64,000 bases of DNA, taken from contig VMGC01000005.1 in assembly GCA_007376385.1 (NCBI GenBank), positions 32,001 to 96,000 of the forward strand. The letters run 5' to 3'. Within the stretch, counting starts at the first letter, position 1. Every line of letters starts with the position of its first letter. The notes below the pieces were generated by a model. The model had not been told where the DNA came from, made no database searches, and worked only from the letters and a program-made list of their open reading frames with translations. The position numbers and the translations under genes are program-made. Shown one piece after another: positions 92-64,000 of the stretch. The DNA comes from Parcubacteria group bacterium Gr01-1014_8. Lineage in GTDB: Bacteria; Patescibacteriota; Minisyncoccia; Phycocordibacterales; UBA2100.

Positions 92-388
92 TCAGTCGAG
101 TACTCGGACAAGTCTGGATCGCATAACGTTGTAATATGTATTGTCCGGGTACCGTTTATCTCTCGCCTTGACGAGTTCAGGTTTGAAGTCACGTATATCC
201 TCTTCGGACATGGTCTTGGGGCCTACCCAAGCTGTTTCGGTGTTGCCAACTTTATCGAGCTTTAAAACACGGAGTACAGTACCAGCGCGAATATTCCCAC
301 TGAAGAATCGAGCATGAGATGCATACTTAAGCATCGCAAAACATTCTTCCTCTATGGGTAAAGAAAGCCCTTCGTGCTGTTCTCCCAT
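92..388 (-). CDS. Hypothetical small protein (about 99 aa). The C-terminal part of the longer 92..826 ORF reads like a real protein; start chosen at the internal Met (MGEQHEG...).
   Basis: ORF track 92..826 (-). Plausible globular sequence only downstream of Met147. It is divergent from the operon at 595. No family recognised. Confidence 0.3.
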   Translation of the reverse strand: MGEQHEGLSLPIEEECFAMLKYASHARFFSGNIRAGTVLRVLKLDKVGNTETAWVGPKTMSEEDIRDFKPELVKARDKRYPDNTYYNVMRSRLVRVLD

Positions 389-416: not shown

Positions 417-524
417 TTATTTGCGAGCGTTGCGAGTAAAATGCAAAAGAGCACTTTTGCATTCCCGAGCCGAGGAGCAAACACAGGTTCAATACCTCGG
501 AGCAAGCTCCGAGGAACCTTTATT
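417..524 (+). ncRNA. Candidate small structured RNA, repeat copy 1. Order of parts: TTATTT box, GCGAGCGTTGCGAG, hairpin 441-462, CCGAGCCGAGGAGC, terminator-like hairpin 495-514, then UUUAUU.
   Basis: Near-identical copy at 38889-38996 and a diverged copy at 15593-15759 whose changes keep both stems paired (one as a G-U pair). Hairpin plus U-tract at the 3' end. Confidence 0.45.
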
Positions 525-594: not shown

Positions 595-1110
595 ATGTTA
601 CGCCTTTTGACGCAGATGATCCGGACTGGCAAGAAGACCGAACCGGCTCCAATACTGGAGCCAATTGACGAGGTCGGGGAGAACCTCCGCAATGCCATTC
701 ATACGCTCTACGGAGGGCGTATGCTCCGTATCCGCCACGTGGATGCCGGCTCGACAAACGGAGAGGAATTCGAGATGACGGCGCTTGGCAACGCCTACTA
801 CGACATGGAGCGATTCGGACTTTCATTTGTTGCCTCTCCCCGGCACGCTGACATTTTGACCGTATCCGGGCCAGTAACGCGCAATATGGAACACGCGCTC
901 AAGACTGCGTATGAAATGACGCCGAAGCCTCGCATTGTCATCGCAGTCGGAGACGGCGCAATTGACGGAGGAATCTGGAAAGATTCGTACGCAATTGTGG
1001 GAGGGGTGAAGGATGTTATTCCGGTTGACGCCGAAATTCCCGGAGATCCACCGTCTCCGCTTGATCTGCTAAAAGGATTTCTAAATGTGTTGCAAGGCGC
1101 AAGAAAATAG
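595..1110 (+). CDS. NuoB/HycG-like hydrogenase small-subunit homolog in which all four N2 [4Fe-4S] cysteine ligands are replaced.
   Basis: GSCNGCE corresponds to GSTNGEE here, MGACALSGG to VGDGAIDGG, and PGCPP to PGDPP. The rest of the sequence aligns to NuoB/HycG (PKPRIVIAVG..., VIPVD). Confidence 0.8.
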   Translation: MLRLLTQMIRTGKKTEPAPILEPIDEVGENLRNAIHTLYGGRMLRIRHVDAGSTNGEEFEMTALGNAYYDMERFGLSFVASPRHADILTVSGPVTRNMEHALKTAYEMTPKPRIVIAVGDGAIDGGIWKDSYAIVGGVKDVIPVDAEIPGDPPSPLDLLKGFLNVLQGARK

Positions 1111-1115
1111 TTTTT

Positions 1116-3080
1116 ATGGTTGCGTCTTTTTTTGTTGCCTCGCTGATTTTGCCGCTTGTAGCAGGAGTTGCTGCGCTTCTTCTCCTGCGTACAAAAGCGG
1201 GTCACATGCTCACGCAATTGGTTTTTGCTCTCGGCGGCCTAAGCGGTGTCGTTGGCGCAACGTTGTTCTATGCGAGCGATGGAGCGAGCACCGTCGTTTT
1301 TCATACGGCACTCTTTAGTCTTGTTGTCGGGACGCTTTCAGTATTCTTTTTGGGAATTATATCCGTCGGTGTTCTTCTCACATCGTTGTATGCGCTTGAG
1401 GGTCTGCGCAGATACAAAAGCGTCTATTCACTCCCGTGGCTTGCCGTTGCGTCTGCTTTTTTCATATTCGGCATGCAGGCAACGGTCATGGCCTCCTCTG
1501 TTGCGGGTTTTCTCGTTGCGTGGGAGTTGATGTCCGTCGCCGCATATTTCCTCGTTATAGCGGATGGCACTGAAGAATCACTGCATGCAGGCTTCTCGTT
1601 TTTTATCATGGCGCACATCGGGTTCGCGAGTCTTGTCGCAGGATTTCTACTTCTTTCTGCGGGCAATCCCTTTGCAGAGTGGCCGGAAGTAGCGCTCGCC
1701 GCAAAAACCATGACGCCGGCGACGCTCTCCGTCGCGTTCTCGCTTTTATTCATCGGCTTCGGCTCAAAAGCGGGTCTTGCCCCGCTCCATCAGTGGCTGC
1801 CCATGGCGCATCCGCAAGCGCCGAGCCACGCTTCGGCGTTGCTATCCGGCGTCATGTTGAAAGTCGCGCTTTTTGGGTTCATTCAATCGCTGTTCTTGTT
1901 TCCATCGGTTCCCCTATCATGGGGCGTTGTTGTCCTTGTGGTAGGACTCGTGTCGGCTTTCTTCGGCGTTCTGCACGCAGTCGTCGAGAGCGACATGAAA
2001 CGAGTACTCGCATGGAGCAGCATCGAGAACATGGGCCTTATTTTCTCTGGCGTAGGCGCAGCAATGATATTGCGCACGTTGCCGTACGAGGCAGGACCCG
2101 TACTCGCATCATCTATCGCCATTTTCGTTGCGCTCCATATCATCAATCACTTTCTCTTCAAGAGCGGGCTCTTCATGGCTGCGGGCGTTATCGTATCGGA
2201 AGTGCATTCTCGTGACATGGATATCATGGGGGGTTTAGCGCAAAAGTGGCCCATCTTCTCCGGCGTTTTTCTAGCTCTCGCGCTCGCAGCGGCAGCGTTG
2301 CCTCCGTTCGGTACATTCTTTGGCGAGTGGATGTATCTGCAATCTCTCGCACTTGCGCTTGTCGGTCTGCCTTTGCCGCTTTCCGTCGTTGCGGGACTCG
2401 TCCTCGCAGCCGTCGCATTGGTGAGCGGCCTTGCTATCGTTGCGTTCGTAAAAATGTTCTCAAGCGTCTTTTTAGGGAGAGCTCGAAATGAACATGCGGA
2501 ACATGTGGGGATGATGCCAATGTCTCTTATGTGGCCGCCAATGGTGTGCGCGATTCTTTCGATTGTTGCCGGGGTGCTTGCATTTCCTTTTTTTTCATCG
2601 CATTTTATGGATGGCGCGAGCATCATGCAAGATGTCGTTATCGTACAAGGCGCCTCCATGAACGCTTGGATCCTGTGGGCGCTTATCGCGGGTCTTGCGA
2701 TCATAGCGCTTCTTCTCGCGCGTTTTCTTCGCGTGCCGGTTCGCATTACGGATACGTGGGATTGCGGGCAGCCGCTCACGTCGCGAATGGAATATACGGC
2801 AACTGGATTCTCGGCACCGTTCCGCTTTTTCTTCCGTGCGTTCTTAGTATCGCGAAAAGAAATGATCGTTACGCCTATCTCTTCAGAGAATCCGTGGATA
2901 GCGAACCGGCGTCTCGAGTGGAGCATTACCTCAACATGGGAGCGGCTCTTTTATCGCCCCGTCGGGCAGGCATTGCTTCGTTTTGCTGAATACGCGCGCA
3001 AGTTCCAAAGCGGCGTCGTCCAGATGTACCTTTTGTTTGTTGTTATCGCTCTTGTCGGAGCATTCATTTTTGCGCTATGA
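1116..3080 (+). CDS. HyfB/HycC-like (NuoL/MrpA family) antiporter-type membrane subunit.
   Basis: 654 aa polytopic protein with the WLPMAHPQAPSHASALLSGVMLKVALFG motif typical of HycC/HyfB. Confidence 0.8.
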   Translation: MVASFFVASLILPLVAGVAALLLLRTKAGHMLTQLVFALGGLSGVVGATLFYASDGASTVVFHTALFSLVVGTLSVFFLGIISVGVLLTSLYALEGLRRYKSVYSLPWLAVASAFFIFGMQATVMASSVAGFLVAWELMSVAAYFLVIADGTEESLHAGFSFFIMAHIGFASLVAGFLLLSAGNPFAEWPEVALAAKTMTPATLSVAFSLLFIGFGSKAGLAPLHQWLPMAHPQAPSHASALLSGVMLKVALFGFIQSLFLFPSVPLSWGVVVLVVGLVSAFFGVLHAVVESDMKRVLAWSSIENMGLIFSGVGAAMILRTLPYEAGPVLASSIAIFVALHIINHFLFKSGLFMAAGVIVSEVHSRDMDIMGGLAQKWPIFSGVFLALALAAAALPPFGTFFGEWMYLQSLALALVGLPLPLSVVAGLVLAAVALVSGLAIVAFVKMFSSVFLGRARNEHAEHVGMMPMSLMWPPMVCAILSIVAGVLAFPFFSSHFMDGASIMQDVVIVQGASMNAWILWALIAGLAIIALLLARFLRVPVRITDTWDCGQPLTSRMEYTATGFSAPFRFFFRAFLVSRKEMIVTPISSENPWIANRRLEWSITSTWERLFYRPVGQALLRFAEYARKFQSGVVQMYLLFVVIALVGAFIFAL

Positions 3081-14130: not shown

Positions 14131-14198
14131 TGTTTTCGAGCTACACAAGATGTTAGGACACAGTAAAATATTTAATTCGTCAACAAGCTATACACGTC

Positions 14199-14216
14199 TT
14201 ATCTCATGGGGTATAG
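14199..14216 (+). promoter_or_regulatory. Conserved motif, copy 3 (plus orientation); its TATAGT ends 11 nt before the ATG of the SET-domain gene.
   Basis: TTATCTCATGGGGTATAG. Confidence 0.5.
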
Positions 14217-14227
14217 TCTCTCCCTCT

Positions 14228-14656
14228 ATGCGTGCGCAAATACTGCAGACGCGGTTTGCTATTCGACGCTCCAAGCCGGGCCTGGGCTATGGGTTATTTG
14301 CCACGAACGCGATACCTGCAGGAGAGTTCGTGCTCGAATACAAAGGGCGTCACGTACCGACGGAAACGGCGGACAAGCTCAAAACTAAGTACCTTTTTGA
14401 GATAGACAGCTCATGGACCATCGACGGTTCAACAAGGGCGAATACTGCGCGATACGTGAATCACTCCTGCGCCCCGAATTGCGAGGCAGACGTACGAGAT
14501 GGGAAAGTGCTTATTTTTGCCAACCGGGAGATCGAGGCGGGGGAGGAGCTGACAATCGATTACGGAGAAGAATATTTCAAAGAGTTCATTGAGCCGCACG
14601 GCTGCAAGTGCGACCGCTGCAAGCACCCTCGGCTCGCATTCTGGCGCCGCTCGTGA
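14228..14656 (+). CDS. SET-domain protein (lysine methyltransferase fold) with a post-SET Cys cluster.
   Basis: GLGYGLFA, NHSCxPNC, ELTIDYG and C-terminal CKCDRC motifs. Confidence 0.7.
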   Translation: MRAQILQTRFAIRRSKPGLGYGLFATNAIPAGEFVLEYKGRHVPTETADKLKTKYLFEIDSSWTIDGSTRANTARYVNHSCAPNCEADVRDGKVLIFANREIEAGEELTIDYGEEYFKEFIEPHGCKCDRCKHPRLAFWRRS

Positions 14657-15045: not shown

Positions 15046-15582
15046 ATGTCGGTGGGAGATCTTAATTCACTTCTCGCCCTTGGCACGCTCGCCATTCAGA
15101 TAGCCAGTGCGGTTTTGTTGGCGGTGTATTTTTTACCGAATCTTATTCCCGGTGCGTATGAAATACGTGCGTATGTGGGAAAGTGGGGAATTGCATTGGG
15201 ACTCGTTCTCATTCTGACAACAGCAGCGGCGAATCTTTACTACGAATCGTTTGGATTTGAGCCATGCTATTGGTGTTATTGGCAGAGGATTTTTCTGTAC
15301 CCGCAAGCTGTTTTGTTCGGAGTTGCTCTTTGGAAACGTGACATGCAAATTGCCGATCATTCTATTGCGTTATCGATTTTTGGAGCGGGCGTTGCTCTCT
15401 ATCACCACGCACTTCAAATGCTTCCCGGTAGCGGTCTTCCATGCCCGTCTGTAGGTGTCTCCTGCGCCACGCGCATCCTGTTCGAATTCGGCTACATTAC
15501 GTACCCTCTGATGGCGTTTTCGCTGTTTGCGTTTCTTATCGTGTTGATGTTGTTCGTGCGGTCTTCCTATCAGGCAAAATAA
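15046..15582 (+). CDS. DsbB/BdbC-family disulfide bond formation protein.
   Basis: Four-transmembrane-helix protein with PCYWCYWQRI (compare BdbC PCVLCWYQRI) and a second Cys pair in the later periplasmic loop (CPSVGVSC). Confidence 0.65.
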   Translation: MSVGDLNSLLALGTLAIQIASAVLLAVYFLPNLIPGAYEIRAYVGKWGIALGLVLILTTAAANLYYESFGFEPCYWCYWQRIFLYPQAVLFGVALWKRDMQIADHSIALSIFGAGVALYHHALQMLPGSGLPCPSVGVSCATRILFEFGYITYPLMAFSLFAFLIVLMLFVRSSYQAK

Positions 15583-15592
15583 TCTCTGCGAA

Positions 15593-15759
15593 ATTATTGG
15601 CGAGCGTTGCGAGTGAAATGAACGTGTACTCATGTTCATTTCCGAGCCGAGGAGCCAAAATACGGTTAATACCGCGCAGCAAGCTGCGCACGTGTGCGAG
15701 CGAAGCGAGCTCATCAGCAGGTCCAGGGCTTTGCCCTGGGGTTTAATACCGTTTATTTT
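15593..15759 (+). ncRNA. Candidate small structured RNA, repeat copy 2 (diverged, with an extra 3' hairpin and U-tract).
   Basis: Same architecture as 417-524. Stem 1 ATGAACGTG/CATGTTCAT (one G-U pair) and stem 2 GCGCAG/CTGCGC with the conserved CAAG loop. Ends with CCAGGGCTTTGCCCTGG plus TTTATTTT. Confidence 0.4.
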
Positions 15760-16241
15760 CAGCAACCGATCATGAGGCTGCCTCCCGTTTGAATGCGTAT
15801 CATGCCGGGATCTTGTCGTATTGGGGGGCCGGCCTCCAGATACGCACACACTTTCCAGTTGTGGCTTGTTGCGGGGTATACGTTGCCCGTTTCTGTGAAT
15901 ACTGTGTATTCGCACGGGGCAGATGACGATGAAGTGCAGATTGCCGTCGGTCTCGTGGGGTCTTTGTATGCGCTAAGGTCGGGTCCGCTTCCAGCACATG
16001 TATAGGCTGCGTCGCCGGCCGCTGTGCAGCCTGTGAACACTATTGGGCGGCTGTTATCTTCTCTGAGAGCTACGGCATTCGCTATCTGGCGAAGGTCCTG
16101 GATCCGGCGTGAATCGCGACTCTTGATGCGAGCAGAACTCAATGCGACAAACGCGATAGATGCGAGGATCGCAATGATACTCACAACGACAAGAAGTTCG
16201 ATGAGACTGAAGCCGGATTCTTTGGGAGAAGTTCCTCTCAT
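15759..16241 (-). CDS. Type IV pilin / pseudopilin (prepilin N-terminal methylation domain).
   Basis: MRGTSPKESGFSLIELLVVVSIIAILASIA prepilin leader and cleavage motif. Confidence 0.8.
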   Translation of the reverse strand: MRGTSPKESGFSLIELLVVVSIIAILASIAFVALSSARIKSRDSRRIQDLRQIANAVALREDNSRPIVFTGCTAAGDAAYTCAGSGPDLSAYKDPTRPTAICTSSSSAPCEYTVFTETGNVYPATSHNWKVCAYLEAGPPIRQDPGMIRIQTGGSLMIGC

Positions 16242-18635: not shown

Positions 18636-18737
18636 CGGAAAATTATAGCCCGACGAAGCGAGTGAAGCGAGAGCTTTGTTCTCGTTTCCGAGTAAGCGCA
18701 GATCAAACGAAAACGGCGACTATCTTATGGAGAGTCT

Positions 18738-25729: not shown

Positions 25730-28729
25730 ATGATAACGCGGGTTACGGTACGGGCGAAGAGAGAAGATGCTCGGGCCGATGGATACCTGCGAACTCTCAA
25801 AAATAGGTTTCCCAAGGTCAAACTGAAGGGCGTGGCTGTAACGGAGGCCTATACCATTGATGCCAAACTTTTGCCGAAGGAACTTGAAAAAATCGCGAAG
25901 GGTCTCGCAAATCCGATAATAGAAGAATATGCTACAAAGGGCGTATTAGCCCCCGAAACTTTTTCTGTAGCAGTAGAGATAGGATTCTTGCCGGGTGTTA
26001 CTGATAATGTCGGACACACGGTGAGGGAAATGATAGAGGATACGACAGGACGCAAATTTAAAGACGCCGCCGCCGTCTATACTTCGAGATTTTTGTTTCT
26101 TACGGGTTCGACAGCGACTGATGAAGCCGCAAGAATGGCGCGGGAATTTTATAACCCGCTTATCCAGCGCGCGTCGGTGCTTTCGTATTCTGAGTTTAAG
26201 AAAGGTGTACCGATCATAGTACCCAAGGTTGAACTGCACAGCACAGTAAAAACGGATGAGGTGAATTTAGAAGTCGATGACGATGAGTTGATGAGAATAG
26301 GCAAGGAGGGAATTGTGAACAAGGACAACACAAGACAAGGACCGCTCGCCCTCTCTCTTCGCGCGATGCACATCATTCGCGATTATTTTCGTACGATTGG
26401 CAGGGATCCAACTGACGTTGAACTCGAGGCACTCGCGCAGACATGGTCCGAACACTGCAAACACACGATCTTCGCCGACCCCCTGGATGAGATAGAGGAG
26501 GGAATTTACCGGCGATATATCAAAGGTGCAACGCAAAAGATACGGAAAGACAAGGGTAAGAAAGATTTCTGCGTGTCGGTATTCACCGATAACTCTGGCG
26601 GGATCGCTTTCGACGATAAATATCTCGTCACACACAAAGTCGAGACGCATAATTCGCCATCAGCTCTGGATCCATTCGGCGGCGCGATAACGGATATCGT
26701 TGGTGTGAATCGCGATTGTCTTGGGTTCGGATTAGGTGCAAAACCAATTGCAAACGTGTACGGATTTTGCGTTGCTGATCCGACTGACGAGACGCCTTAT
26801 TTTCGCGACAAAGAAAAAACACAACCGCTTCTCTCCAACCGACGAATTCTTGAAGGGATCGTTCAGGGCATCAATGCAGGTGGAAACCAGAGTGGTATTC
26901 CCACTCCTCTTGGTTTTGTTGCTGTTGACCCAAGCTTTCGCTCAAAACCTCTGGTGTATGGCGGAACGGTCGGACTTATTCCAAGAAAATCTCACGGGCG
27001 AAAGCTTCACGAAAAAGAAGCGCGCGCTGGCGATTACGTAGTGATGATAGGCGGGAAGGTTGGTCTCGACGGCATACACGGTGCCACATTTTCCTCGGAG
27101 GCCTTGGCGAAGGGTTCGCCTGCGACGGCCGTGCAGATAGGCGACCCCATTACGCAAAAGAAATTCTCCGACGCTATCGTACGAGAAGCGCGGGATGCAG
27201 GTCTTTTCAACAGCATTACCGATAACGGCGCAGGCGGACTCTCGTCGTCGGTGGGTGAGATGGCGAAAGACTCCGGTGGGTTTGTCGTCGACTTGGAAAA
27301 AGTCCCACTCAAATACCCAGGACTCTCTCCGTGGCAGATATGGATATCAGAATCGCAAGAGCGCATGACGCTCTCGGTACCGAAGTCGAAATGGAATGCG
27401 CTGAAGAAAATATTTGATAGGCACGGAGTGGACGCGTGGCGAATAGGCGAGTTCACAAAATCAGGTAAAGCAATTGTGAGGTGGAGGGGGACGAAGGTGA
27501 TGGATATGGATATGAAATTCCTTCATGACGGCCGTCCCATCGAGGAGCAGAAAAGCCAGCCAGTCTTGAGGACATTCGCGGAGCCGCTTCCTGAGGAGCG
27601 GCCGAAAGATCTAGGAAAGACGCTTGTCGAAATGCTCGCTCGGCCGTCTATTGGCAGTATCTCGTTTATCTCACAACAGTACGACCACGAAGTTCTCGCG
27701 ATGGCTGTTACAAAACCATTGCAAGGACGGGGGAGAGTGAATGCGGATTCGGGAGTAATCCAGCCGTTGCCTCACTCCAATCGCGGCGTGGTGCTCGCGC
27801 ATGGATATGCACCGTGGTATTCGAACATTGATACATATGCGATGGCAGCAGCTTCCATTGATGCGGCGATTCGAAATGCGGTTGCTGCAGGCGCATCGCT
27901 CGACCATTTGGCGATACTCGACAACTTTTGCTGGTCGAGTTCGAACGAGCCGGGGCGCTTATACGAATTGAAACGTGCAGCCGAGGCTTGCTACGACATT
28001 GCGGTTGCCTACGGCACGCCATATATATCAGGCAAGGATTCAATGTTCAATGATTTTCGAGGATATACGGAGAGTGACGTGCAGATCCACATCGCGGCGC
28101 TCCCGACGCTTCTTATTTCCGCTATCGGCGTGATTCCCGACGTCCGTAAGGCCGTCACGCTCGACGCAAAACAGCCGGGCGACCTTGTCTATCTTATCGG
28201 CGATACTAATGACGAACTCGGTGCATCCGAATATTTCACAATGCTCTCTGAACGTACATCGACCTACGAAGTCGATAGGGATGACCGACATACGATGTCG
28301 AACATTGGAAGCAATGTCCCGCGCGTGGACACGACGAAAAATATGAAAACATATAAAGCTCTTGAAAAAGCGATACAGAAAGGCCTTGTCGCATCAGCAA
28401 TCTCTGTTGGGCGCGGAGGACTTGCCGTCGCGCTCGCGAAAACTGCAATAGCAGGGAAGTTGGGAATAAACGCGGACCTGACGAAGTTGCTTGGCACTGC
28501 AGGAACGGATGACTCAAGACTGTTCTCGGAAAGCCAAGGGCGTGTTCTCGTGAGCGTAAACTCAAAGCTGAAGCGGGAATTCGAGAAATCATGTCAAGGT
28601 TCAACCTTGACATTAGTGGGCGAGGTGATGAAAAGGAATTCGCTCGAAGTAGACCTTTCGGAGAAGCGGCTGAATATTCCGCTCAAAATGCTCTCGGCAG
28701 CATATCAGAAGCCGTTCAAAAATTGGTGA
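25730..28729 (+). CDS. purL: Phosphoribosylformylglycinamidine synthase, PurS-PurL fusion (FGAM synthase II).
   Basis: 999 aa. PurL AIR-synthase-like repeats (HNSPSALDPFGGA, ISGKDSM) with an N-terminal PurS-like module. Confidence 0.85.
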   Translation: MITRVTVRAKREDARADGYLRTLKNRFPKVKLKGVAVTEAYTIDAKLLPKELEKIAKGLANPIIEEYATKGVLAPETFSVAVEIGFLPGVTDNVGHTVREMIEDTTGRKFKDAAAVYTSRFLFLTGSTATDEAARMAREFYNPLIQRASVLSYSEFKKGVPIIVPKVELHSTVKTDEVNLEVDDDELMRIGKEGIVNKDNTRQGPLALSLRAMHIIRDYFRTIGRDPTDVELEALAQTWSEHCKHTIFADPLDEIEEGIYRRYIKGATQKIRKDKGKKDFCVSVFTDNSGGIAFDDKYLVTHKVETHNSPSALDPFGGAITDIVGVNRDCLGFGLGAKPIANVYGFCVADPTDETPYFRDKEKTQPLLSNRRILEGIVQGINAGGNQSGIPTPLGFVAVDPSFRSKPLVYGGTVGLIPRKSHGRKLHEKEARAGDYVVMIGGKVGLDGIHGATFSSEALAKGSPATAVQIGDPITQKKFSDAIVREARDAGLFNSITDNGAGGLSSSVGEMAKDSGGFVVDLEKVPLKYPGLSPWQIWISESQERMTLSVPKSKWNALKKIFDRHGVDAWRIGEFTKSGKAIVRWRGTKVMDMDMKFLHDGRPIEEQKSQPVLRTFAEPLPEERPKDLGKTLVEMLARPSIGSISFISQQYDHEVLAMAVTKPLQGRGRVNADSGVIQPLPHSNRGVVLAHGYAPWYSNIDTYAMAAASIDAAIRNAVAAGASLDHLAILDNFCWSSSNEPGRLYELKRAAEACYDIAVAYGTPYISGKDSMFNDFRGYTESDVQIHIAALPTLLISAIGVIPDVRKAVTLDAKQPGDLVYLIGDTNDELGASEYFTMLSERTSTYEVDRDDRHTMSNIGSNVPRVDTTKNMKTYKALEKAIQKGLVASAISVGRGGLAVALAKTAIAGKLGINADLTKLLGTAGTDDSRLFSESQGRVLVSVNSKLKREFEKSCQGSTLTLVGEVMKRNSLEVDLSEKRLNIPLKMLSAAYQKPFKNW

Positions 28730-38048: not shown

Positions 38049-38723
38049 TTATCCGCGAAGCCGATAACCAATCCCACGGACCGTTTCCAGAGGGTTTTCG
38101 CTCTCTCCACTGCCAAGCTTTTTTCGAAGATTTTTAACATGGACGTCAACGACATTACTGAATGAGGCATAATTAAAATCCCATAGATTAGTTAATAGAT
38201 CTTCCCGATTCACGACCTGATTCGGGTGCCGCATGAAATACTCCAATAATCCAAATTCTTTTAGCGTAAGCGGTATCTCTTCCCCGTCTCTTTTCACTGT
38301 CCGTTCGACCGGATTGAGTTCGATGTTGCTCACGGAAATGATCTTGGGCACTGTTTCCGTCGGGCGGCGAAGCAGAGCGTGCACTCGTGCAGCTAGTTCC
38401 TTGAAAGAAAACGGCTTGACGAGATAATCATCGGCGCCGGAAAGCAAGAGTTCCACTTTACGATCTGTTTCGTTGCGAGCGGTAAGAATAAGAATTGGCA
38501 CTGTGACGCCCCATTCCCTGACGGTTTTGCATATTTCTGCGCCGTCCATCGAAGGAAGCATCAGGTCTAGAATAACAAGGTCGTAATCGCTTCGGTGAAG
38601 GGAGATGCGGTTCAATGCCTTCTTGCCGTCATGGATCGTGTCCACGGTGTACCCCTTTAGACTTAAGCCGCGGGCCAGCGCATCAGCTAACTTTTGTTCG
38701 TCCTCAACAAGTAATATTTTCAT
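38049..38723 (-). CDS. OmpR-family response regulator.
   Basis: MKILLVEDE...DLVILDLMLP receiver domain and winged-helix C-terminus (VRGIGYRL). Confidence 0.85.
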   Translation of the reverse strand: MKILLVEDEQKLADALARGLSLKGYTVDTIHDGKKALNRISLHRSDYDLVILDLMLPSMDGAEICKTVREWGVTVPILILTARNETDRKVELLLSGADDYLVKPFSFKELAARVHALLRRPTETVPKIISVSNIELNPVERTVKRDGEEIPLTLKEFGLLEYFMRHPNQVVNREDLLTNLWDFNYASFSNVVDVHVKNLRKKLGSGESENPLETVRGIGYRLRG

Positions 38724-38888
38724 GGTCGTGCATTGTTTTCTGCTAAGCTAAAAAGAACCGCCTTCGCGAAGTATAGAGCGGAAAGATGAAGACTTCATGA
38801 GATTACAGACGAAAACAGGTCCGCATCTCTTACGTTGGGTCTCTGAAAGAGCCATGGCGTGGCTCAATGCAGGCGCAATGTGTGTGAT

Positions 38889-38996
38889 TTATTTGCGAGC
38901 GTTGCGAGTGAAACGCAAAAGAGCACTTTTGCATTTCCGAGCCGAGGAGCAAACACAGGTTCAATACCTCGGAGCAAGCTCCGAGGAACCTTTATT
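38889..38996 (+). ncRNA. Candidate small structured RNA, repeat copy 3.
   Basis: About 96% identical to 417-524 over roughly 105 nt. The 3' hairpin plus TTTATT overlaps the stop codon of the convergent permease gene. Confidence 0.45.
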
Positions 38997-39774
38997 GCTT
39001 AAGACCTAGCCCTGTGCGGATGAAGTACCAATTGGCAGCAATGAGGATAGCCACTAACACTACAAGTATCGAGACTGACATGTAGAGGGAAACGTCAGTA
39101 ATGCCGAGGAATCCGTAGCGGAAACCGTTGATGAGGTAGAAAAGGGGATTTGCGTACGTTATCGCCTGCCACCAATCGGGAAGCGAATGGACCGAGTAGA
39201 AAATACCACCGAGGTAGACGAGTGGTGTCAGGAAGAATGTGGGGACGATGTTGATGCCATCGATCGTTTTCGCATAGATGCCGTTCACGAGTCCTGCGAG
39301 AGCGAAAACGAGTGCGGTGAGGAGGGCGAATCCTAGGATGACGAGGACGCTATGAATGGTGAGCGAGAGGCCAGTGAAAAAGAGTGACACCATAAGCACT
39401 AGTGCGCCGACGAGGATGCCGCGTATCACGCCTCCGCCAACAAAGCCAGCAATAAGAAGCCATGGCGGCGTAGGGGAGACGAGAATTTCATCGATCGAGC
39501 GTGCGAAGAATTTTGACGTAAAGAACATGAATGACGTATTCGCGTATGATGTTGTGACGATAGCGAGCATCACGAGACCGGGAACGACGAATGTCATGTA
39601 ATCGACACCTTGCATGTCACCAATACGGGAGCCAAGCACGGTTCCGAACACGAGAAAGTAGAGAGTGGAAGTGATAACGCTCGGAAGAAATGTCTGGACC
39701 CAAATGCGGAACATGCGGACAATGTCCTTTCGTATCATGGTGTAGAACGCGATCCATTTTTGGTAGGGAGTCAT
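38992..39774 (-). CDS. ABC-2-type transporter permease.
   Basis: 260 aa, six predicted transmembrane helices, ABC-2 family features. Confidence 0.75.
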   Translation of the reverse strand: MTPYQKWIAFYTMIRKDIVRMFRIWVQTFLPSVITSTLYFLVFGTVLGSRIGDMQGVDYMTFVVPGLVMLAIVTTSYANTSFMFFTSKFFARSIDEILVSPTPPWLLIAGFVGGGVIRGILVGALVLMVSLFFTGLSLTIHSVLVILGFALLTALVFALAGLVNGIYAKTIDGINIVPTFFLTPLVYLGGIFYSVHSLPDWWQAITYANPLFYLINGFRYGFLGITDVSLYMSVSILVVLVAILIAANWYFIRTGLGLKQ

Positions 39775-41286: not shown

Positions 41287-42684
41287 TTAATGTCCGGAGG
41301 TGTCCCATTCCTCGCCGACGCCCTTGAAGTGCGCGAGTTTTTCTCGGAAAAGCGCTTTTATTTTTTCGAGTGTATCATGGGTCTTTGCCTCGAAGCGAAG
41401 CACGAGTGTTGGTGTGTTCGAAGAGGCGCGGACAAGTCCCCAGCCGTCGTGTGCATAGACACGTGCGCCGTTTATATCAACGACCTTGTAGCCATCATGT
41501 TTGAACATCTTTACCAGCTCATCGACAATCTTGTATTTTTCCTCATCAGTCGTTTTGACTTGGATAGTCGGAGTGGCGATGTAATAGGGAGTCGTCGCGA
41601 CCAATTCCGAAAGCGTTTTCGTATGTGATGAAAGATATTCAAGCAGTTTGAGGGCGGCGAAGAACGCATCGTCAAACCCATAGAAATCATCGCCGAAGAA
41701 AATGTGTCCGCTCATTTCTCCGCCGAGCGCGGCATCCACTTCCTGTAGCTTCGCTTTGATATACGAATGTCCCGTTTTCCACATAATAGGGACGCCGCCG
41801 TGCATGGCAATATCTTCTGGAAGCGCTTGGGAGACTTTCACATCGAATACGATCTTGGATCCAGGTTTCTTTGCCAAAACCAATCGAGAAAGAAGCATAA
41901 GATAGCGATCTGGCCAAACGATATTACCTTTCTCGTCTACGACACCGAGCCTATCGCCATCACCGTCGAACGCGAGTCCGATGTCGCACGCGTTTTTCAA
42001 GACCTGCACGACGGTGTCGTTCATCATCGCTTCGCCATCCGGATTCGCTGTGTAATTCGGATAGCTTGGATCGACGTTTGTAAGATGTTCTACGATTTCG
42101 CAACCGGTTTTCCGGAATAATTCCGGCGCGAACATTCCCGCGGTGCCGTTCCCCGTATTTATCAGCACTTTTAGTTTTTTCTTGATTAATGTTCGACATA
42201 CGATGTCGGTCATATATTCCTTGGCTATGTCGTCCTTTCGAATGTTCGACATCGTATGTCGAACATAGTCCTCTTTTTCGATGATTGAATAGAGAGTTTT
42301 GATTTCGTCCGGGCCGAGGGTCTCGGAGAAATTAATTCCTAGCTTGAGGCCGTTCCACCCGGCAGGATTATGACTGGCCGTTATCATGCAGAGGCCACGC
42401 GCTTTGAAATGGTATTGCGCCCAGTAACTCATCGGGGTTGTGACCGTGCCGATGTCTATGATGTCCACGCCTGATTCCGCCAGGGCTTTTTTTGCCTGTG
42501 CTGCGAAACTTTCGGATGTCTCGCGCGCATCGTTTCCGACAACAGCGTTCGTGATATTCGCATCGCGAAGCATTTTTCCAAATCCTCTCGCGATGTGGTA
42601 TATGGAGTTCTCGTTCAGCTCGTCGTCCGATTCACGGCCGCGAATGTCGTATTCGCGGAACATTGTTTTTTTAAGAGAGGCCAT
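41287..42684 (-). CDS. Phosphoglucomutase/phosphomannomutase (alpha-D-phosphohexomutase).
   Basis: ITASHNPAGWNG active-site loop and DGDGDR metal-binding loop. Confidence 0.85.
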   Translation of the reverse strand: MASLKKTMFREYDIRGRESDDELNENSIYHIARGFGKMLRDANITNAVVGNDARETSESFAAQAKKALAESGVDIIDIGTVTTPMSYWAQYHFKARGLCMITASHNPAGWNGLKLGINFSETLGPDEIKTLYSIIEKEDYVRHTMSNIRKDDIAKEYMTDIVCRTLIKKKLKVLINTGNGTAGMFAPELFRKTGCEIVEHLTNVDPSYPNYTANPDGEAMMNDTVVQVLKNACDIGLAFDGDGDRLGVVDEKGNIVWPDRYLMLLSRLVLAKKPGSKIVFDVKVSQALPEDIAMHGGVPIMWKTGHSYIKAKLQEVDAALGGEMSGHIFFGDDFYGFDDAFFAALKLLEYLSSHTKTLSELVATTPYYIATPTIQVKTTDEEKYKIVDELVKMFKHDGYKVVDINGARVYAHDGWGLVRASSNTPTLVLRFEAKTHDTLEKIKALFREKLAHFKGVGEEWDTSGH

Positions 42685-60266: not shown

Positions 60267-60366
60267 ATATGTCTTGTTAGCGAGTAGTGGATGTAACTCT
60301 ACCCTTAGCTTTATTGCGGTGCAACAACCAGAATTTCATAACAAACAGATCTTGGGGGGCAGATTC

Positions 60367-60484
60367 ACCACACGGGTACTTCCATTTCACTAACATCGGG
60401 GTACCGATGAAGTGAAATTGGTCGCACCACACGGGTACTTCCATTTCACTAACATCGGGGTACCGATGAAGTGAAATTGGTCGC
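60367..60484 (+). repeat. Exact tandem duplication of a 59-nt hairpin-forming unit, 95-210 nt upstream of glnA.
   Basis: Unit 60367-60425 repeats exactly at 60426-60484. Each unit contains ATTTCACT...AGTGAAAT around the inner palindrome CATCGGGGTACCGATG. Confidence 0.85.
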
Positions 60485-63426: not shown

Positions 63427-64000
63427 ATAAACCTCCGGCGTTAGCCGGAGTGTACGTTTGAAGGCGAAGCCGTATGCTAAAGCCGTCCGGCAGGACGGCT
63501 TTAGCAATAACCATACGCATGTCATCACACAAACGTACAATACGCACATTATCACACTGCTTTTACGACCTGAAATACCATCTGGTATGGACACCAAAGT
63601 ACCGAGGAAAGGTACTGACAGCACAGAAGGTGAAAGATGAGTTGCGGAGAATCTTCGAGACAATCTGCAAGTGGAAACACTGGGAAGTCATCGAACTGAA
63701 CATTCAAGACGATCACGTACACTTCTGCATCCTCACGACACCGAGAGACTCCATCTCATATACCATGCAAATACTGAAGGGGAAGTCGTCTGCTTGGCTC
63801 AAGAAGAAGATCAAACGGGCACACGGTCTGTACGAAAAAGAATCTCTGTGGGCGAGGGGTTACTTTGTCTCTACGATCGGCATCGACGAGCACCTCATAC
63901 GTCGGTACATCAAGCATCAACACCATCACAATCAAACAGACCAACCAAGTCTGTTTGACAAGCTGCTCTCTTAACAACCGCGGCCGCCCTGCCGGCGTAG
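63427..64000 (+). mobile_element. IS200/IS605-family element (left end with subterminal hairpins plus tnpA); the right end is beyond the window.
   Basis: Hairpins CTCCGGCGTTAGCCGGAG (63433-63450) and AAGCCGTCCGGCAGGACGGCTT (63479-63500) upstream of a Y1 HUH transposase gene. Confidence 0.7.
63519..63974 (+). CDS. tnpA: IS200/IS605 TnpA (Y1 HUH transposase).
   Basis: LKYHLVWTPKYR, DDHVHFCILTTP (HuH motif) and catalytic-Tyr region (RGYFVSTIG). Confidence 0.85.
   Translation: MSSHKRTIRTLSHCFYDLKYHLVWTPKYRGKVLTAQKVKDELRRIFETICKWKHWEVIELNIQDDHVHFCILTTPRDSISYTMQILKGKSSAWLKKKIKRAHGLYEKESLWARGYFVSTIGIDEHLIRRYIKHQHHHNQTDQPSLFDKLLS

What the first reader, a model, noticed from the sequence alone, without database searches (positions are those of the whole stretch)
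417..524. Three-copy small structured RNA-like element with compensatory (including G-U) substitutions and an intrinsic terminator
About 105 nt at 417-524 and 38889-38996 are near-identical. A third copy at 15593-15759 is substantially diverged yet preserves both hairpins through paired changes. Stem 1 changes from ATGCAAAAG/CTTTTGCAT to ATGAACGTG/CATGTTCAT, with one position becoming a G-U pair. Stem 2 changes from CCTCGGAG/CTCCGAGG to GCGCAG/CTGCGC, and the CAAG loop is invariant. The G-U pair is only valid if the plus strand is the RNA. Every copy begins after a TTATT(T/G) box. Copies 1 and 3 end with hairpin 2 immediately followed by TTTATT; copy 2 carries an extra hairpin then TTTATTTT. 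Together these look like promoter, sRNA and rho-independent terminator. Genomic contexts differ (divergent, convergent and tandem intergenic), which argues for an independent sRNA gene family, or a structured REP-like element, rather than a cis-leader. I do not recognise it as any Rfam family.
Basis: seen in the sequence. Interest (0 to 1): 0.7.

Follow-up and report, generated by a model that had tools for sequence, protein, structure and literature searches.

The report
Structured mini mobile element in CPR
The look-alike hairpin-forming stretches are copies of a small (about 80-160 base) piece of selfish DNA that inserts next to the letters TTAT or TTAC in several candidate-phyla-radiation bacteria; they are most likely not genes for a regulatory RNA.

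Summary
The window holds three clear copies (421-523, 15598-15756, 38893-38995) and a fourth decayed one (18647-18728). A further copy lies 3 kb beyond the window. All are on the + strand. Relatives occur in Parcubacteria/Kaiserbacteria and Saccharibacteria MAGs. Three helices (P1, P2, P3) covary strongly around two near-invariant purine-rich loops. Rfam 15 has no match.

The sRNA reading does not hold:
- Similarity starts and stops exactly at a TTAT/TTAC tetranucleotide present at both ends.
- No promoter is conserved, and the terminator is not conserved.
- G-T and A-C mispairs are equally frequent (6 v 6), so neither strand is favoured.
- Private mutations within a subfamily break stems without compensation.

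In a Saccharibacteria MAG a 79-nt copy interrupts a vapC gene. An intact homologue shows the empty site. Ten of 11 copies are intergenic.

Best reading: a previously undescribed non-autonomous mobile element. Its TTAY target, lack of terminal inverted repeats, subterminal hairpins and uniform orientation on the G-rich strand resemble IS200/IS605 "peel-and-paste" mini-elements. An IS200-type tnpA sits at 63519-63974, but its ends differ, and no autonomous partner was found.

The parts
417..420 (+). TTAT immediately 5' of copy 1 (inferred target / left cleavage site)
   Evidence: Similarity among the three short copies begins here and the flanks are unrelated. Every copy in every genome has TTAT or TTAC at this position.
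421..523 (+). Copy 1, short form, 103 nt. P1 420-424/477-481. 5' loop GAGCGTTGCGAGT 425-437. P2 438-449/454-465. 3' loop CGAGCCGAGGA 466-476. P3 485-489/515-519, enclosing hairpin 495-514. Terminal TTAT 520-523.
   Evidence: CM 83.9 bits, E 4e-27. Fold z -4.7 as RNA and -4.4 as DNA, and the minus strand folds equally well. Two private A-C mispairs at the base of P2. Lies between divergent genes 92-388(-) and the NuoB-like gene at 595(+).
15598..15756 (+). Copy 2, long form, 159 nt, preceded by TTAT 15594-15597. Same P1/P2 core with a fully compensated P2. P3 (ACGGT 15660-15664 / ACCGT about 15748-15752) encloses an 83-nt insert: two hairpins and a second box GCGAGCGAAGCGAG. Ends in TTAT.
   Evidence: CM 96.2 bits. 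Sequence. P3 covariation. Lies between convergent genes: DsbB-like 15046-15582(+) and pilin-like 15759-16241(-).
18647..18728 (+). Copy 4, decayed copy, preceded by TTAT 18643-18646. P2 is retained with a different sequence (GAAGCGAGAGC/GTTCTCGTTTC). The loops are degenerate. The right boundary is approximate.
   Evidence: CM 21.5 bits, E 6.5e-5 over the whole window. Sequence. Lies between two minus-strand genes.
38836..38856 (+). Possible relic of an older copy (tentative). GGGTCTCTGAAAGAGCC follows an unoccupied CTCTTAC site at 38827-38833. That site is orthologous to the occupied site in Kaiserbacteria locus L021.
   Evidence: The window and L021 flanks align up to and including CTCTTAC. 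L021 then carries a 150-nt element and the window does not. The 16-nt match to the 3' part of the L021 element is not significant on its own (E 0.3).
38889..38892 (+). TTAT immediately 5' of copy 3
38893..38995 (+). Copy 3, short form, 103 nt, ending in TTAT. The stop codon of the ABC-2 permease gene (38992-38994, minus strand) lies in the terminal TTTAT.
   Evidence: CM 89.3 bits. One private C-A mispair in P2. Lies between the response-regulator gene 38049-38723(-) and the permease gene 38992-39774(-). Removing the element leaves ...CAA TAA intact, because the left-flank TTAT supplies the same bases (read).
63433..64000 (+). IS200-type insertion sequence, cut by the window end (it runs to window-equivalent 64044). 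tnpA (Y1 HUH transposase) is at 63519-63974. A candidate but unproven trans-acting mobiliser.
   Evidence: Pfam Y1_Tnp E 2e-34. More than 600 close relatives, many on short contigs. Ends defined from alignment A4 and L027: left flank TATAAAC|, right end ...GGTGGTCGTTTAC|. Its left end lacks the element's conserved blocks.

Best explanation
These are copies of a previously undescribed family of small (79-159 nt), non-autonomous, highly structured mobile DNA elements of Patescibacteria (CPR).

Shown:
- Each copy lies immediately 3' of a TTAT or TTAC tetranucleotide and itself ends in the same tetranucleotide.
- It has no terminal inverted repeats.
- It folds into three helices. P1 encloses two near-invariant purine-rich strands (GAGCGTTGCGAG and CGAGCCGAGGA) and a 12-13 bp hairpin, P2. 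P3 closes right at the 3' end and tolerates inserts of 2 to about 85 nt.
- At least one copy is a true insertion.

Inferred mechanism: the element is excised and inserted as single-stranded DNA by a trans-acting HUH (Y1, IS200/IS605-type) transposase, in the 'peel-and-paste' manner.
- The folded top strand would be the substrate.
- The conserved loops would be the protein-recognition surface.
- The last base of the TTAY site would be read by base pairing with an internal base (P1's outermost pair).

Selection for the fold would then act on transposition-competent master copies. Inserted copies decay neutrally. Any effects on neighbouring genes (hairpins between convergent genes, a disrupted toxin gene) would be by-products.

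My probabilities: mobile or selfish repeat of some kind, about 0.8. Specifically HUH single-strand transposition, about 0.4.
For: 1. True insertion. In L002, removing exactly 79 nt (916-994, preceded by TTAC and ending in TTAC) restores a 122-aa PIN/VapC protein (Pfam PIN 2-118/120, E 6e-18). An intact 122-aa homologue (83% identical, with the same YYLQKDEAV junction) exists. Its DNA aligns with one clean 79-nt gap.
2. Sharp boundaries. Three short copies in the source contig align only from TTAT to TTTAT, and the flanks are unrelated.
3. Decay pattern. Six private substitutions, all transitions. Five are in stems and all are uncompensated. One is in a conserved loop. Compensatory changes are seen only between subfamilies: P1/P2 have 12 of 17 pairs with double changes and 95.6% paired, with 0/500 shuffles reaching this. 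P3 has 4 of 5 pairs with double changes and 97% paired.
4. No RNA-strand signature. G-T v A-C mispairs are 6 v 6. Both strands fold equally well.
5. Intergenic bias. Ten of 11 copies are intergenic, although only about 18% of + strand TTAY sites in the window are intergenic. The one genic copy is in a toxin gene.
6. Independent insertions in one intergenic region. The window, L021 (response regulator 87% identical) and L001 (71%) carry different subtypes, at different TTAY sites, upstream of the orthologous regulator. Two other relatives lack it.
7. Patchy cross-phylum distribution, Parcubacteria/Kaiserbacteria and Saccharibacteria, with near-identical loops.
8. IS200/IS605-like traits:
   - TTAY at the left flank of all copies. 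IS608 inserts 3' of TTAC (PMC5027513). IS606 inserts 3' of TTAT, and mini-IS605/606 exist (PMC2993954).
   - No terminal inverted repeats.
   - Hairpins near both ends.
   - All 5 copies in 73 kb of the source contig are on the + strand, which has positive GC skew throughout. That fits the top strand lying on the lagging-strand template (PMC5027513).
   - The Y of TTAY covaries with internal column 72: U-A x4, C-G x3, and L021 and the extra copy fit too.
   - A Y1 transposase gene is in the window. Its IS ends in ...CGTTTAC|, like the ...CGTTTAT| / ...GGTTTAC| ends of the element.
Against: - No autonomous copy with these ends was found. Exact two-block pattern scans of GTDB species representatives, JGI metagenomes and IMG/VR returned only short copies.
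- The only IS200-type element on the contig has a different left end and left flank (TATAAAC|). A cognate relationship is therefore not shown.
- In IS608-like elements the left- and right-end hairpins resemble each other. Here P2 and P3 do not.
- Within one genome P2 differs completely between subfamilies while the unpaired loops are invariant. That is unusual for known HUH substrates.
- Identity of the flanking and terminal tetranucleotides fits a 4-bp target-site duplication equally well.
- Orientation bias rests on 5 copies (two-sided p about 0.06). GC skew of the short foreign loci is uninformative.
- Recurrence upstream of the same regulator in three genomes could instead mean a selected function.
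- No expression or excision data are available.
Confidence: 0.55

Rival explanations
1. An independent family of trans-acting small RNA genes transcribed from the + strand, each with its own promoter (TTATT box) and intrinsic terminator.
For: - Strongly covarying helices around conserved unpaired sequences, as in many functional RNAs.
- Copies 1 and 3 pass a lenient terminator scan on the + strand.
- The core is about 95% identical next to orthologous response-regulator genes that are only 71% identical in protein, while the flanks are unalignable.
- The element is present upstream of that regulator in three genomes.
Against: - No promoter-like site lies upstream of any copy. No conservation extends upstream of TTAT.
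- The genome's own recurrent promoter-like motif (TTATCTCAYGGGGTAnAAT) is absent near the copies.
- The terminator is not conserved in copy 2's last hairpin or in the 79-nt forms.
- G-T and A-C mispairs are 6 v 6.
- Private mutations break stems and hit a conserved loop.
- One copy interrupts vapC.
- The regulator-linked copies are different subtypes at different sites.
Confidence: 0.1
2. A REP-like, host-retained structural repeat acting at the DNA or mRNA level: bidirectional terminator, mRNA 3'-end stabiliser or nucleoid-protein site. It would be spread by a domesticated RAYT-type Y1 enzyme or by recombination, and would no longer be a transposon in the strict sense.
For: - Extragenic, repeated, hairpin-forming, uniform orientation.
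- Several copies sit between convergent genes or right after a gene or tRNA end: copy 2, the extra copy, L005 after tRNA-Gly.
- RAYT-like genes exist in related Patescibacteria (L021, L025).
Against: - The RAYT-like genes found are flanked by their own unrelated palindromes, not by this element.
- No RAYT-like gene is present in 73 kb of the source contig.
- The element is much longer and more composite than a REP, and it lacks the 5' GTAG-type head.
- Individual copies decay.
- Orientation relative to flanking transcription is inconsistent.
Confidence: 0.15
3. A conventional MITE mobilised by a DDE transposase that makes a 4-bp TTAY target-site duplication.
For: The same tetranucleotide is present on both sides in 9 of 10 distinct copies. 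Removing one repeat plus the element restores vapC.
Against: - There are no terminal inverted repeats. The first and last 20 nt are unrelated (read).
- The duplicated base Y covaries with an internal base. A passive duplication does not explain this.
- All copies are in one orientation.
Confidence: 0.08
4. An RNA-level element: a very small intron or self-processing RNA removed from transcripts, or spread by reverse splicing or retro-mobility.
For: - It sits in-frame-restoring inside vapC, and both gene halves are intact.
- It has a compact three-helix fold, a conserved core and a variable peripheral domain, as in ribozymes.
Against: - Ten of 11 copies avoid genes, although 88% of the DNA is coding. 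Genic insertions therefore appear to be deleterious.
- There is no strand bias in wobble pairs.
- There is no match to any intron or ribozyme family, even at permissive thresholds.
- The vapC copy is nearly identical to a second copy in the same MAG, which fits a recent disruptive insertion.
- No reverse transcriptase or splicing enzyme lies nearby.
Confidence: 0.04

Closest known systems
Mini-IS / PATE derivatives of IS200/IS605-family elements (e.g. mini-IS606 and mini-IS605 of Helicobacter pylori; IS608 as the mechanistic model)
   Same: - Short gene-less elements with no terminal inverted repeats.
- The left end always lies next to a specific tetranucleotide. TTAT is the IS606 target and TTAC the IS608 target (PMC2993954, PMC5027513).
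- Hairpins near both ends.
- One orientation on the strand expected to be the lagging-strand template.
- A base of the target appears to pair with an internal base, as IS608 guide sequences do.
- A Y1 transposase gene is present in the same contig.
   Different: - The ends are not those of any full-length IS found here, and no autonomous parent was found.
- The left and right hairpins are unlike each other.
- Hairpin sequences vary freely, while two unpaired purine-rich strands are near-invariant across phyla.
- The right end carries the same tetranucleotide as the target, whereas IS608 has TTAC on the left and a different site on the right (the latter from my own knowledge).
- P3 accepts large inserts.
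REP / REPIN elements with RAYT transposases
   Same: Extragenic, multi-copy, hairpin-forming, orientation-biased, and thought to be handled as single-stranded DNA by a Y1 HUH enzyme.
   Different: - REPs are 20-40 nt palindromes with a conserved 5' tetranucleotide head, often paired as BIMEs/REPINs, and they flank their RAYT gene.
- This element is an 80-160 nt three-helix unit.
- The RAYT-like genes seen in relatives are flanked by other palindromes.
Bacterial MITEs such as Correia (Neisseria), RUP (Streptococcus) and ERIC
   Same: About 100-150 nt non-coding repeats, mostly intergenic, able to fold. They occasionally disrupt genes or provide terminator-like hairpins.
   Different: Those have terminal inverted repeats and TA or similar duplications made by DDE transposases, and both orientations occur. 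Here there are no terminal inverted repeats, and orientation is uniform.
Multi-copy bacterial sRNA families and Rfam structured-RNA motifs
   Same: Covarying helices and conserved single-stranded segments. Some copies have a hairpin plus T-run at the 3' end.
   Different: No conserved promoter, no strand-specific wobble pattern, copies decay, and there is no Rfam 15 match at gathering or permissive thresholds.

Membership tests
IS200/IS605-family non-autonomous element (mini-IS / PATE) | No terminal inverted repeats | tested here: met
   The first and last 20 nt of each copy are unrelated in reverse complement (read).
IS200/IS605-family non-autonomous element (mini-IS / PATE) | Left end always 3' of an element-specific tetra/pentanucleotide | tested here: met
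   TTAT (window copies 1-4, the extra copy, L007) or TTAC (L001, L002, L003, L005, L021) immediately 5' of every copy.
IS200/IS605-family non-autonomous element (mini-IS / PATE) | No target-site duplication (the target is not copied) | tested here: inconclusive
   The right end carries the same tetranucleotide. A 4-bp duplication and an element-borne right cleavage site cannot be told apart. L005 (TTAC/TTAG) and L001 (TTAC/GTAC) hint at an element-borne end.
IS200/IS605-family non-autonomous element (mini-IS / PATE) | Subterminal hairpins at both ends | tested here: met
   P2 starts 17 nt from the left boundary. P3 abuts the right TTAY. Both are supported by covariation.
IS200/IS605-family non-autonomous element (mini-IS / PATE) | Ends are those of a full-length IS carrying tnpA (and/or tnpB) | tested here: not met
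   The IS200-type element in the same contig has a different left end and flank. The covariance model finds nothing significant at the ends of related IS copies. Pattern scans found only short copies.
IS200/IS605-family non-autonomous element (mini-IS / PATE) | Strand-specific orientation (active strand on the lagging-strand template) | tested here: inconclusive
   Five of 5 copies are on the + strand, which has positive GC skew across the window. The sample is small, the origin is not located, and the foreign loci are too short.
IS200/IS605-family non-autonomous element (mini-IS / PATE) | Y1 HUH transposase available in the genome and active on the ends | tested here: inconclusive
   The gene is present at 63519-63974 (Pfam Y1_Tnp E 2e-34). 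Activity on this element cannot be tested with these tools.
REP / RAYT system | Short palindromic unit with a conserved 5' tetranucleotide, flanking a RAYT gene | tested here: not met
   No RAYT-like ORF in the window or L027. RAYT-like genes in L021 and L025 are flanked by unrelated palindromes. That palindrome is absent from the window.
Trans-acting sRNA gene | Own promoter conserved upstream | tested here: not met
   No sigma-70-like sites upstream of the three copies. Alignments lose all similarity 5' of TTAT.
Trans-acting sRNA gene | Conserved intrinsic terminator | tested here: not met
   Only copies 1 and 3 pass a lenient scan. Copy 2's terminal hairpin and the 79-nt forms do not.
Trans-acting sRNA gene | Strand-specific structural conservation (G-U tolerated, A-C avoided) and purifying selection on each copy | tested here: not met
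   G-T 6 v A-C 6 on the + strand. Five of 5 private stem substitutions are uncompensated.
Trans-acting sRNA gene | Discrete transcript | not testable with these tools
   No expression data are available.
Any Rfam 15 family (riboswitches, ribozymes, introns, leaders, sRNAs) | Score at or above the family gathering threshold | tested here: not met
   No hits in the whole window at gathering thresholds. Only chance-level hits at E up to 10 around copy 1. None at E up to 1 around copy 2.
DDE-type MITE | Terminal inverted repeats matching a transposase-bearing IS | tested here: not met
   No terminal inverted repeats.

The most novel reading that the evidence does not exclude
The element may be an orphan mobile unit whose near-invariant purine-rich internal loops are read by a still unknown, cross-phylum CPR factor (protein or RNA). 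Its target, TTAY, would be chosen by base pairing with an internal 'guide' base. That would make it either a new, minimal, guide-using single-strand transposition system distinct from IS200/IS605, or even a self-processing nucleic acid that excises and inserts itself.
Probability: 0.1. Interest if true: 0.8.

Novelty: new variant of a known kind. Interest (0 to 1): 0.42.

Why it matters
- It removes a false lead. What looks like a covarying sRNA family with a promoter and terminator is a selfish repeat. Covariation between subfamilies can arise from selection for transposition competence rather than host function. That caution applies to RNA-motif discovery in metagenomes generally.
- It adds an undescribed repeat family to Patescibacteria, whose tiny genomes are usually thought poor in such elements. 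The family is shared between Saccharibacteria and Parcubacteria, which implies horizontal movement.
- If the HUH link holds, the element offers a very small (79 nt) natural substrate with an apparent guide-target base pair and a module (P3) that tolerates inserts. That would interest people engineering single-strand DNA insertion tools.
- The copies also mark insertion polymorphisms useful for strain tracking.

Tried and rejected
- Rfam 15 at gathering and permissive thresholds gave no family, including group II intron, ribozymes and leaders.
- No tRNA or tmRNA genes in the window.
- A literature search by sequence returned only unrelated hits.
- Plasmid and phage BLAST, and an IMG/VR pattern scan, found nothing.
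- Five of the 8 metagenome pattern hits (L004, L008-L011) were chance matches inside coding DNA with no hairpin.
- A coding reading of the element (ASVAS...PSRG) was rejected. The frames differ between copies, and stems vary by compensation.
- A response-regulator operator reading was rejected. The copies lie at convergent gene ends and inside a gene, and the repeat spacing does not fit OmpR-type boxes.
- An integron attC reading was rejected. The R'/R'' boxes are absent, and P1 is not terminal.
- The group II domain V resemblance (GAGCC...GGUUC) is not supported by Rfam or by the other copies.
- RAYT link: RAYT-like genes in L021 and L025 have their own palindromes.
- I tried to use L021 as an empty site for window copy 3. 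Only the right flank aligns, so no claim is made.
- Exact look-ups of the NuoB-like protein and of TnpA returned 'not on record'.
- The contig for one relative (P0126) had no DNA available.
- The weak model hit in L013 (17 bits) is left as uncertain.
Full report
**1. The observation**

The three stretches are there as described.
- The repeat finder groups them as one family: 417-531, 15594-15708 and 38889-39003.
- A covariance model of the core scores them at 84-96 bits, E 1e-27 to 1e-31.
- The same model finds a fourth, decayed copy at 18638-18711 (21.5 bits, E 6.5e-5).
- It also finds one more copy 3 kb beyond the right end of the window on the same contig (L027 15131-15206, 85 bits).
- All five copies are on the + strand.

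Pfam on the flanking ORFs gives these contexts:
- Copy 1 lies between a 98-aa ORF (92-388, -) and a NuoB-like gene (595, +).
- Copy 2 lies between a DsbB-like gene (+) and a pilin-like gene (-).
- Copy 4 lies between two minus-strand genes.
- Copy 3 lies between an OmpR-type response-regulator gene (38049-38723, -) and the 3' end of an ABC-2 permease gene (-).

**2. Relatives elsewhere**

An exact two-block pattern (GAGCGTTGCGAG ... CCGAGCCGAGGAG) found several relatives.
- In GTDB species representatives: a Parcubacteria MAG (L001) and two sites in a Saccharibacteria MAG (L002, L003).
- In JGI/ENA metagenomes: a groundwater contig (L005) and L006/L007. The other five hits were chance matches in coding DNA.
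- IMG/VR, PLSDB and phage genomes gave nothing.
- A response-regulator homologue search identified the source contig (189.8 kb). Its closest named relatives are Candidatus Kaiserbacteria.
- A Kaiserbacteria genome (L021, regulator 87% identical) carries a 150-nt copy.

**3. Anatomy**

Aligning all copies gives one plan.
- A TTAT or TTAC tetranucleotide comes first.
- P1 follows (5 bp, e.g. TTTGC/GCAAA, TTGGC/GCCAA, CTGGC/GTCAG, CGGAC/GTTCG).
- Next is a 12-13 nt 5' strand, GAGCGTTGCGAG(N).
- P2 is a 12-13 bp hairpin whose sequence changes almost completely between subfamilies.
- Next is an 11-nt 3' strand, CGAGCCGAGGA, then the return strand of P1 and a 2-3 nt linker.
- P3 is a 5-8 bp helix (ACCGG/CCGGT, AGGTT/AACCT, ACGGT/ACCGT, ATCGGC/GCCGAT) that closes immediately before a terminal TTAT/TTAC.

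The inside of P3 is variable.
- It is 2-5 nt in the 79-85 nt forms (L001, L002, L003, L005).
- It is two hairpins in the 150-159 nt forms, with a second CGAGCGNNGCGAG box in copy 2 and L007 (L021 lacks the box).

Covariation is strong.
- In P1+P2, 95.6% of cells are paired and 12 of 17 pairs show changes on both sides. None of 500 shuffles reaches this, and slid controls collapse to 28-50% paired.
- In P3, on an alignment with the inserts replaced by GAAA, 97% of cells are paired and 4 of 5 pairs show double changes.

The helices are real. The two purine-rich strands are near-invariant from Saccharibacteria to Kaiserbacteria.

**4. It is an insertion**

*The vapC case.*
- In L002 the element lies inside a vapC gene.
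- The N-terminal 13 codons (MYTLDTNTVIYYL) precede it. The rest of the PIN domain follows in another frame.
- Deleting exactly 79 nt (916-994, preceded by TTAC and ending in TTAC) gives a 122-aa protein.
- That protein matches Pfam PIN over 2-118 of 120 positions (E 6e-18). It aligns to solved VapC structures across the junction.
- The database holds an uninterrupted 122-aa homologue (83% identical) with the same junction, YYLQKDEAV.
- Its DNA aligns to L002 with a single clean 79-nt gap.

*The three 103-nt copies of the source contig.*
- They are alignable only from TTAT to TTTAT. Their flanks are unrelated.
- They differ by six private substitutions, all transitions.
- Five of these fall in stems and every one breaks a pair. 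One falls in the conserved 3' strand. One hairpin loop is flipped, from CAAG to CTTG.

Compensation is therefore seen between subfamilies but not within them. That is what selection on transposition-competent master copies followed by neutral decay would produce. It is not what selection on each locus would produce.

*Intergenic bias.* Ten of 11 copies are intergenic, although the window is about 88% coding and only about 18% of its + strand TTAY sites are intergenic. The single genic copy is in a toxin gene, a tolerable loss.

*Copy 3 and the permease.* Copy 3 overlaps the permease stop codon. Because the left-flank TTAT supplies the same bases, the pre-insertion gene ended identically (read).

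**5. The response-regulator neighbourhood**

The regulators next to copy 3 and next to the L001 copy are 71% identical. The DNA between regulator and element does not align, while the element core is about 95% identical.
- In L021 the flank aligns with the window up to and including CTCTTAC. L021 then has a long TTAC-type element, whereas the window does not.
- The window copy sits 55 nt further on, at a TTTAT.
- A 16-nt stretch after the window's empty TTAC resembles the 3' part of the L021 element. It may be a relic, but the match is not significant alone.
- Two other relatives (regulator 81% identical) have no copy.

So this intergenic region was hit independently at least twice. Whether that is a hot spot, a permissive space or a selected association is unexplained.

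**6. Tests of the sRNA idea**

- No sigma-70-like promoter is found upstream of any of the three copies, and conservation stops at TTAT.
- The genome has its own recurrent promoter-like motif (TTATCTCAYGGGGTAnAAT) just upstream of many start codons. It is not near any copy.
- The hairpin-plus-T-run passes a lenient scan only for copies 1 and 3. Copy 2's last hairpin and the 79-nt forms have no T-run.
- Orientation relative to neighbours is inconsistent. Four copies are antisense to tandem genes (w3, w4, L001, L003) and two are sense (L002, L007). The others are convergent or divergent.
- All non-Watson-Crick pairs in P1/P2 of ten good copies are transition-type. They split 6 G-T to 6 A-C on the + strand. 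Neither strand is favoured.
- Both strands fold equally well as RNA or as DNA, with z from -4.0 to -4.8 for the short forms.
- Rfam 15 has no match at gathering or permissive thresholds.

**7. Likely mechanism**

*Shown:*
- a specific TTAY at the left flank of every copy;
- the same tetranucleotide at the right end in 9 of 10 distinct copies;
- no terminal inverted repeats;
- hairpins near both ends;
- uniform orientation on a strand with positive GC skew along the whole window.

*Known biology of IS200/IS605.*
- These elements insert their left end 3' of an element-specific tetra- or pentanucleotide, which is TTAC for IS608.
- They move as single-stranded circles.
- They prefer the lagging-strand template.
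- They recognise the target by pairing with a guide sequence next to a hairpin (PMC5027513).
- IS606 uses TTAT, and gene-less mini-IS605/606 exist (PMC2993954).

*What fits here.*
- The Y of TTAY covaries with an internal base. T pairs with A in the TTAT forms and C pairs with G in the TTAC forms (pair 10-72, extended). A passive duplication would not explain that.
- The window itself encodes a Y1 transposase at 63519-63974 (Pfam Y1_Tnp E 2e-34). It belongs to an IS200-type element with hundreds of close relatives in Patescibacteria and other metagenomes.
- The right end of that IS is a hairpin followed by TCGTTTAC|. This resembles the ...CGTTTAT| and ...GGTTTAC| ends of the element.

*Inference.* Single-strand 'peel-and-paste' movement by a trans-acting HUH enzyme, with the conserved loops as the recognition surface.

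**8. What does not fit**

- The left end and left flank (TATAAAC|) of that IS are unlike the element.
- No full-length parent was found.
- P2 and P3 do not resemble each other, unlike IS608 ends.
- Invariant loops combined with freely varying stems are unusual for known HUH substrates.
- RAYT-like genes in L021 and L025 carry their own palindromes, and that palindrome is absent from the window.
- The orientation evidence rests on five copies. GC skew of the short foreign loci is uninformative.

The mobile nature is well supported. The enzyme and the strandedness are hypotheses.

**9. Comparison and novelty**

The element works most like a mini-IS/PATE of the IS200/IS605 family. It fails the membership criterion of sharing ends with a transposase-bearing IS. 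It is not a REP, not a DDE-type MITE, and not any Rfam family. I class it as a new variant of a known kind: a small structured non-autonomous mobile repeat, newly seen in Patescibacteria.

Interest is moderate.
- It corrects an attractive but wrong sRNA reading.
- It documents a cross-phylum CPR repeat with an apparent guide-target pair.
- It leaves an open question about what reads its conserved loops.

Noticed in passing
window 3156, 14110, 24955/25036, 33862/33953, 49453/49533, 54474, 56709/56799, 59586/59676: A recurrent roughly 20-nt motif, TTATCTCA(C/T)GGGGTAnAAT, and its reverse complement. It often occurs as inverted pairs 80-91 nt apart in divergent intergenic regions, and 8-50 nt upstream of start codons. 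The spacers are not conserved. It looks like this organism's promoter consensus (an extended -10-like TAnAAT preceded by GGGG), or a shared operator.
   Followed up: partly
window 63433-64000 (continues to window-equivalent 64044; L027 11433-12043): An IS200-type insertion sequence with tnpA (Y1_Tnp). It has more than 600 close homologues, many on sub-2-kb contigs, which suggests an active and widespread IS in Patescibacteria. Its ends are left flank TA(T/C)AAAC| and right end ...TCGTTTAC|.
   Followed up: yes
L021 4850-5575 and L025 1877-2608: RAYT-like (weak Y1_Tnp) genes flanked by perfect palindromes: ACTTAGAGGTG(A/T)CACCTCTAAGT in L021 and ATGTGGGACTTCGTAAGTCCCACAT in L025. These are classic REP/RAYT arrangements in Kaiserbacteria/Minisyncoccia relatives. 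They are unrelated to the element studied.
   Followed up: partly
window 60366-60483: A perfect tandem duplication of a 59-nt unit, itself containing an inverted repeat (CATTTCACT...AGTGAAATTG), about 95 nt upstream of the glutamine synthetase gene (60578) and amtB. It could be a duplicated regulator site or leader. There is no Rfam hit.
   Followed up: no
window 28280-28306, 42188-42214, 42241-42267: Three copies of a 27-nt palindrome-containing motif (AATGTTCGACATACGATGTCGGTCATA), two of them 53 nt apart. Possibly an operator.
   Followed up: no
window 38749-38860 v L021 (reverse complement) about 9983-9899: A conserved palindrome, GATGAAGACTTCATGA, lies upstream of the orthologous response-regulator genes and is a likely autoregulatory site. 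Forty nt further on, the window has an unoccupied CTCTTAC site, which in L021 carries a 150-nt element. It is followed by a possible 20-nt relic.
   Followed up: partly
L013 12087-12160 (also L014): A weak covariance-model hit (17 bits, E 0.002) with a P1/P2-like layout (…GCGAG-hairpin-…GCCGCGAAGG) between a tRNA synthetase gene and dnaE in another Patescibacteria contig. It may be a very distant family member or chance.
   Followed up: no
window 595-3080 and 14150-14656: A NuoB-like (Oxidored_q6) gene is followed by a 654-aa Mrp/NuoL-type antiporter-like subunit. Separately there is a SET-domain protein. Both are somewhat unexpected gene content for a small CPR genome.
   Followed up: no
L005 860-1010: Here the element is inserted within 5 nt of the 3' end of a tRNA-Gly(CCC) gene, in the same orientation.
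   Followed up: partly
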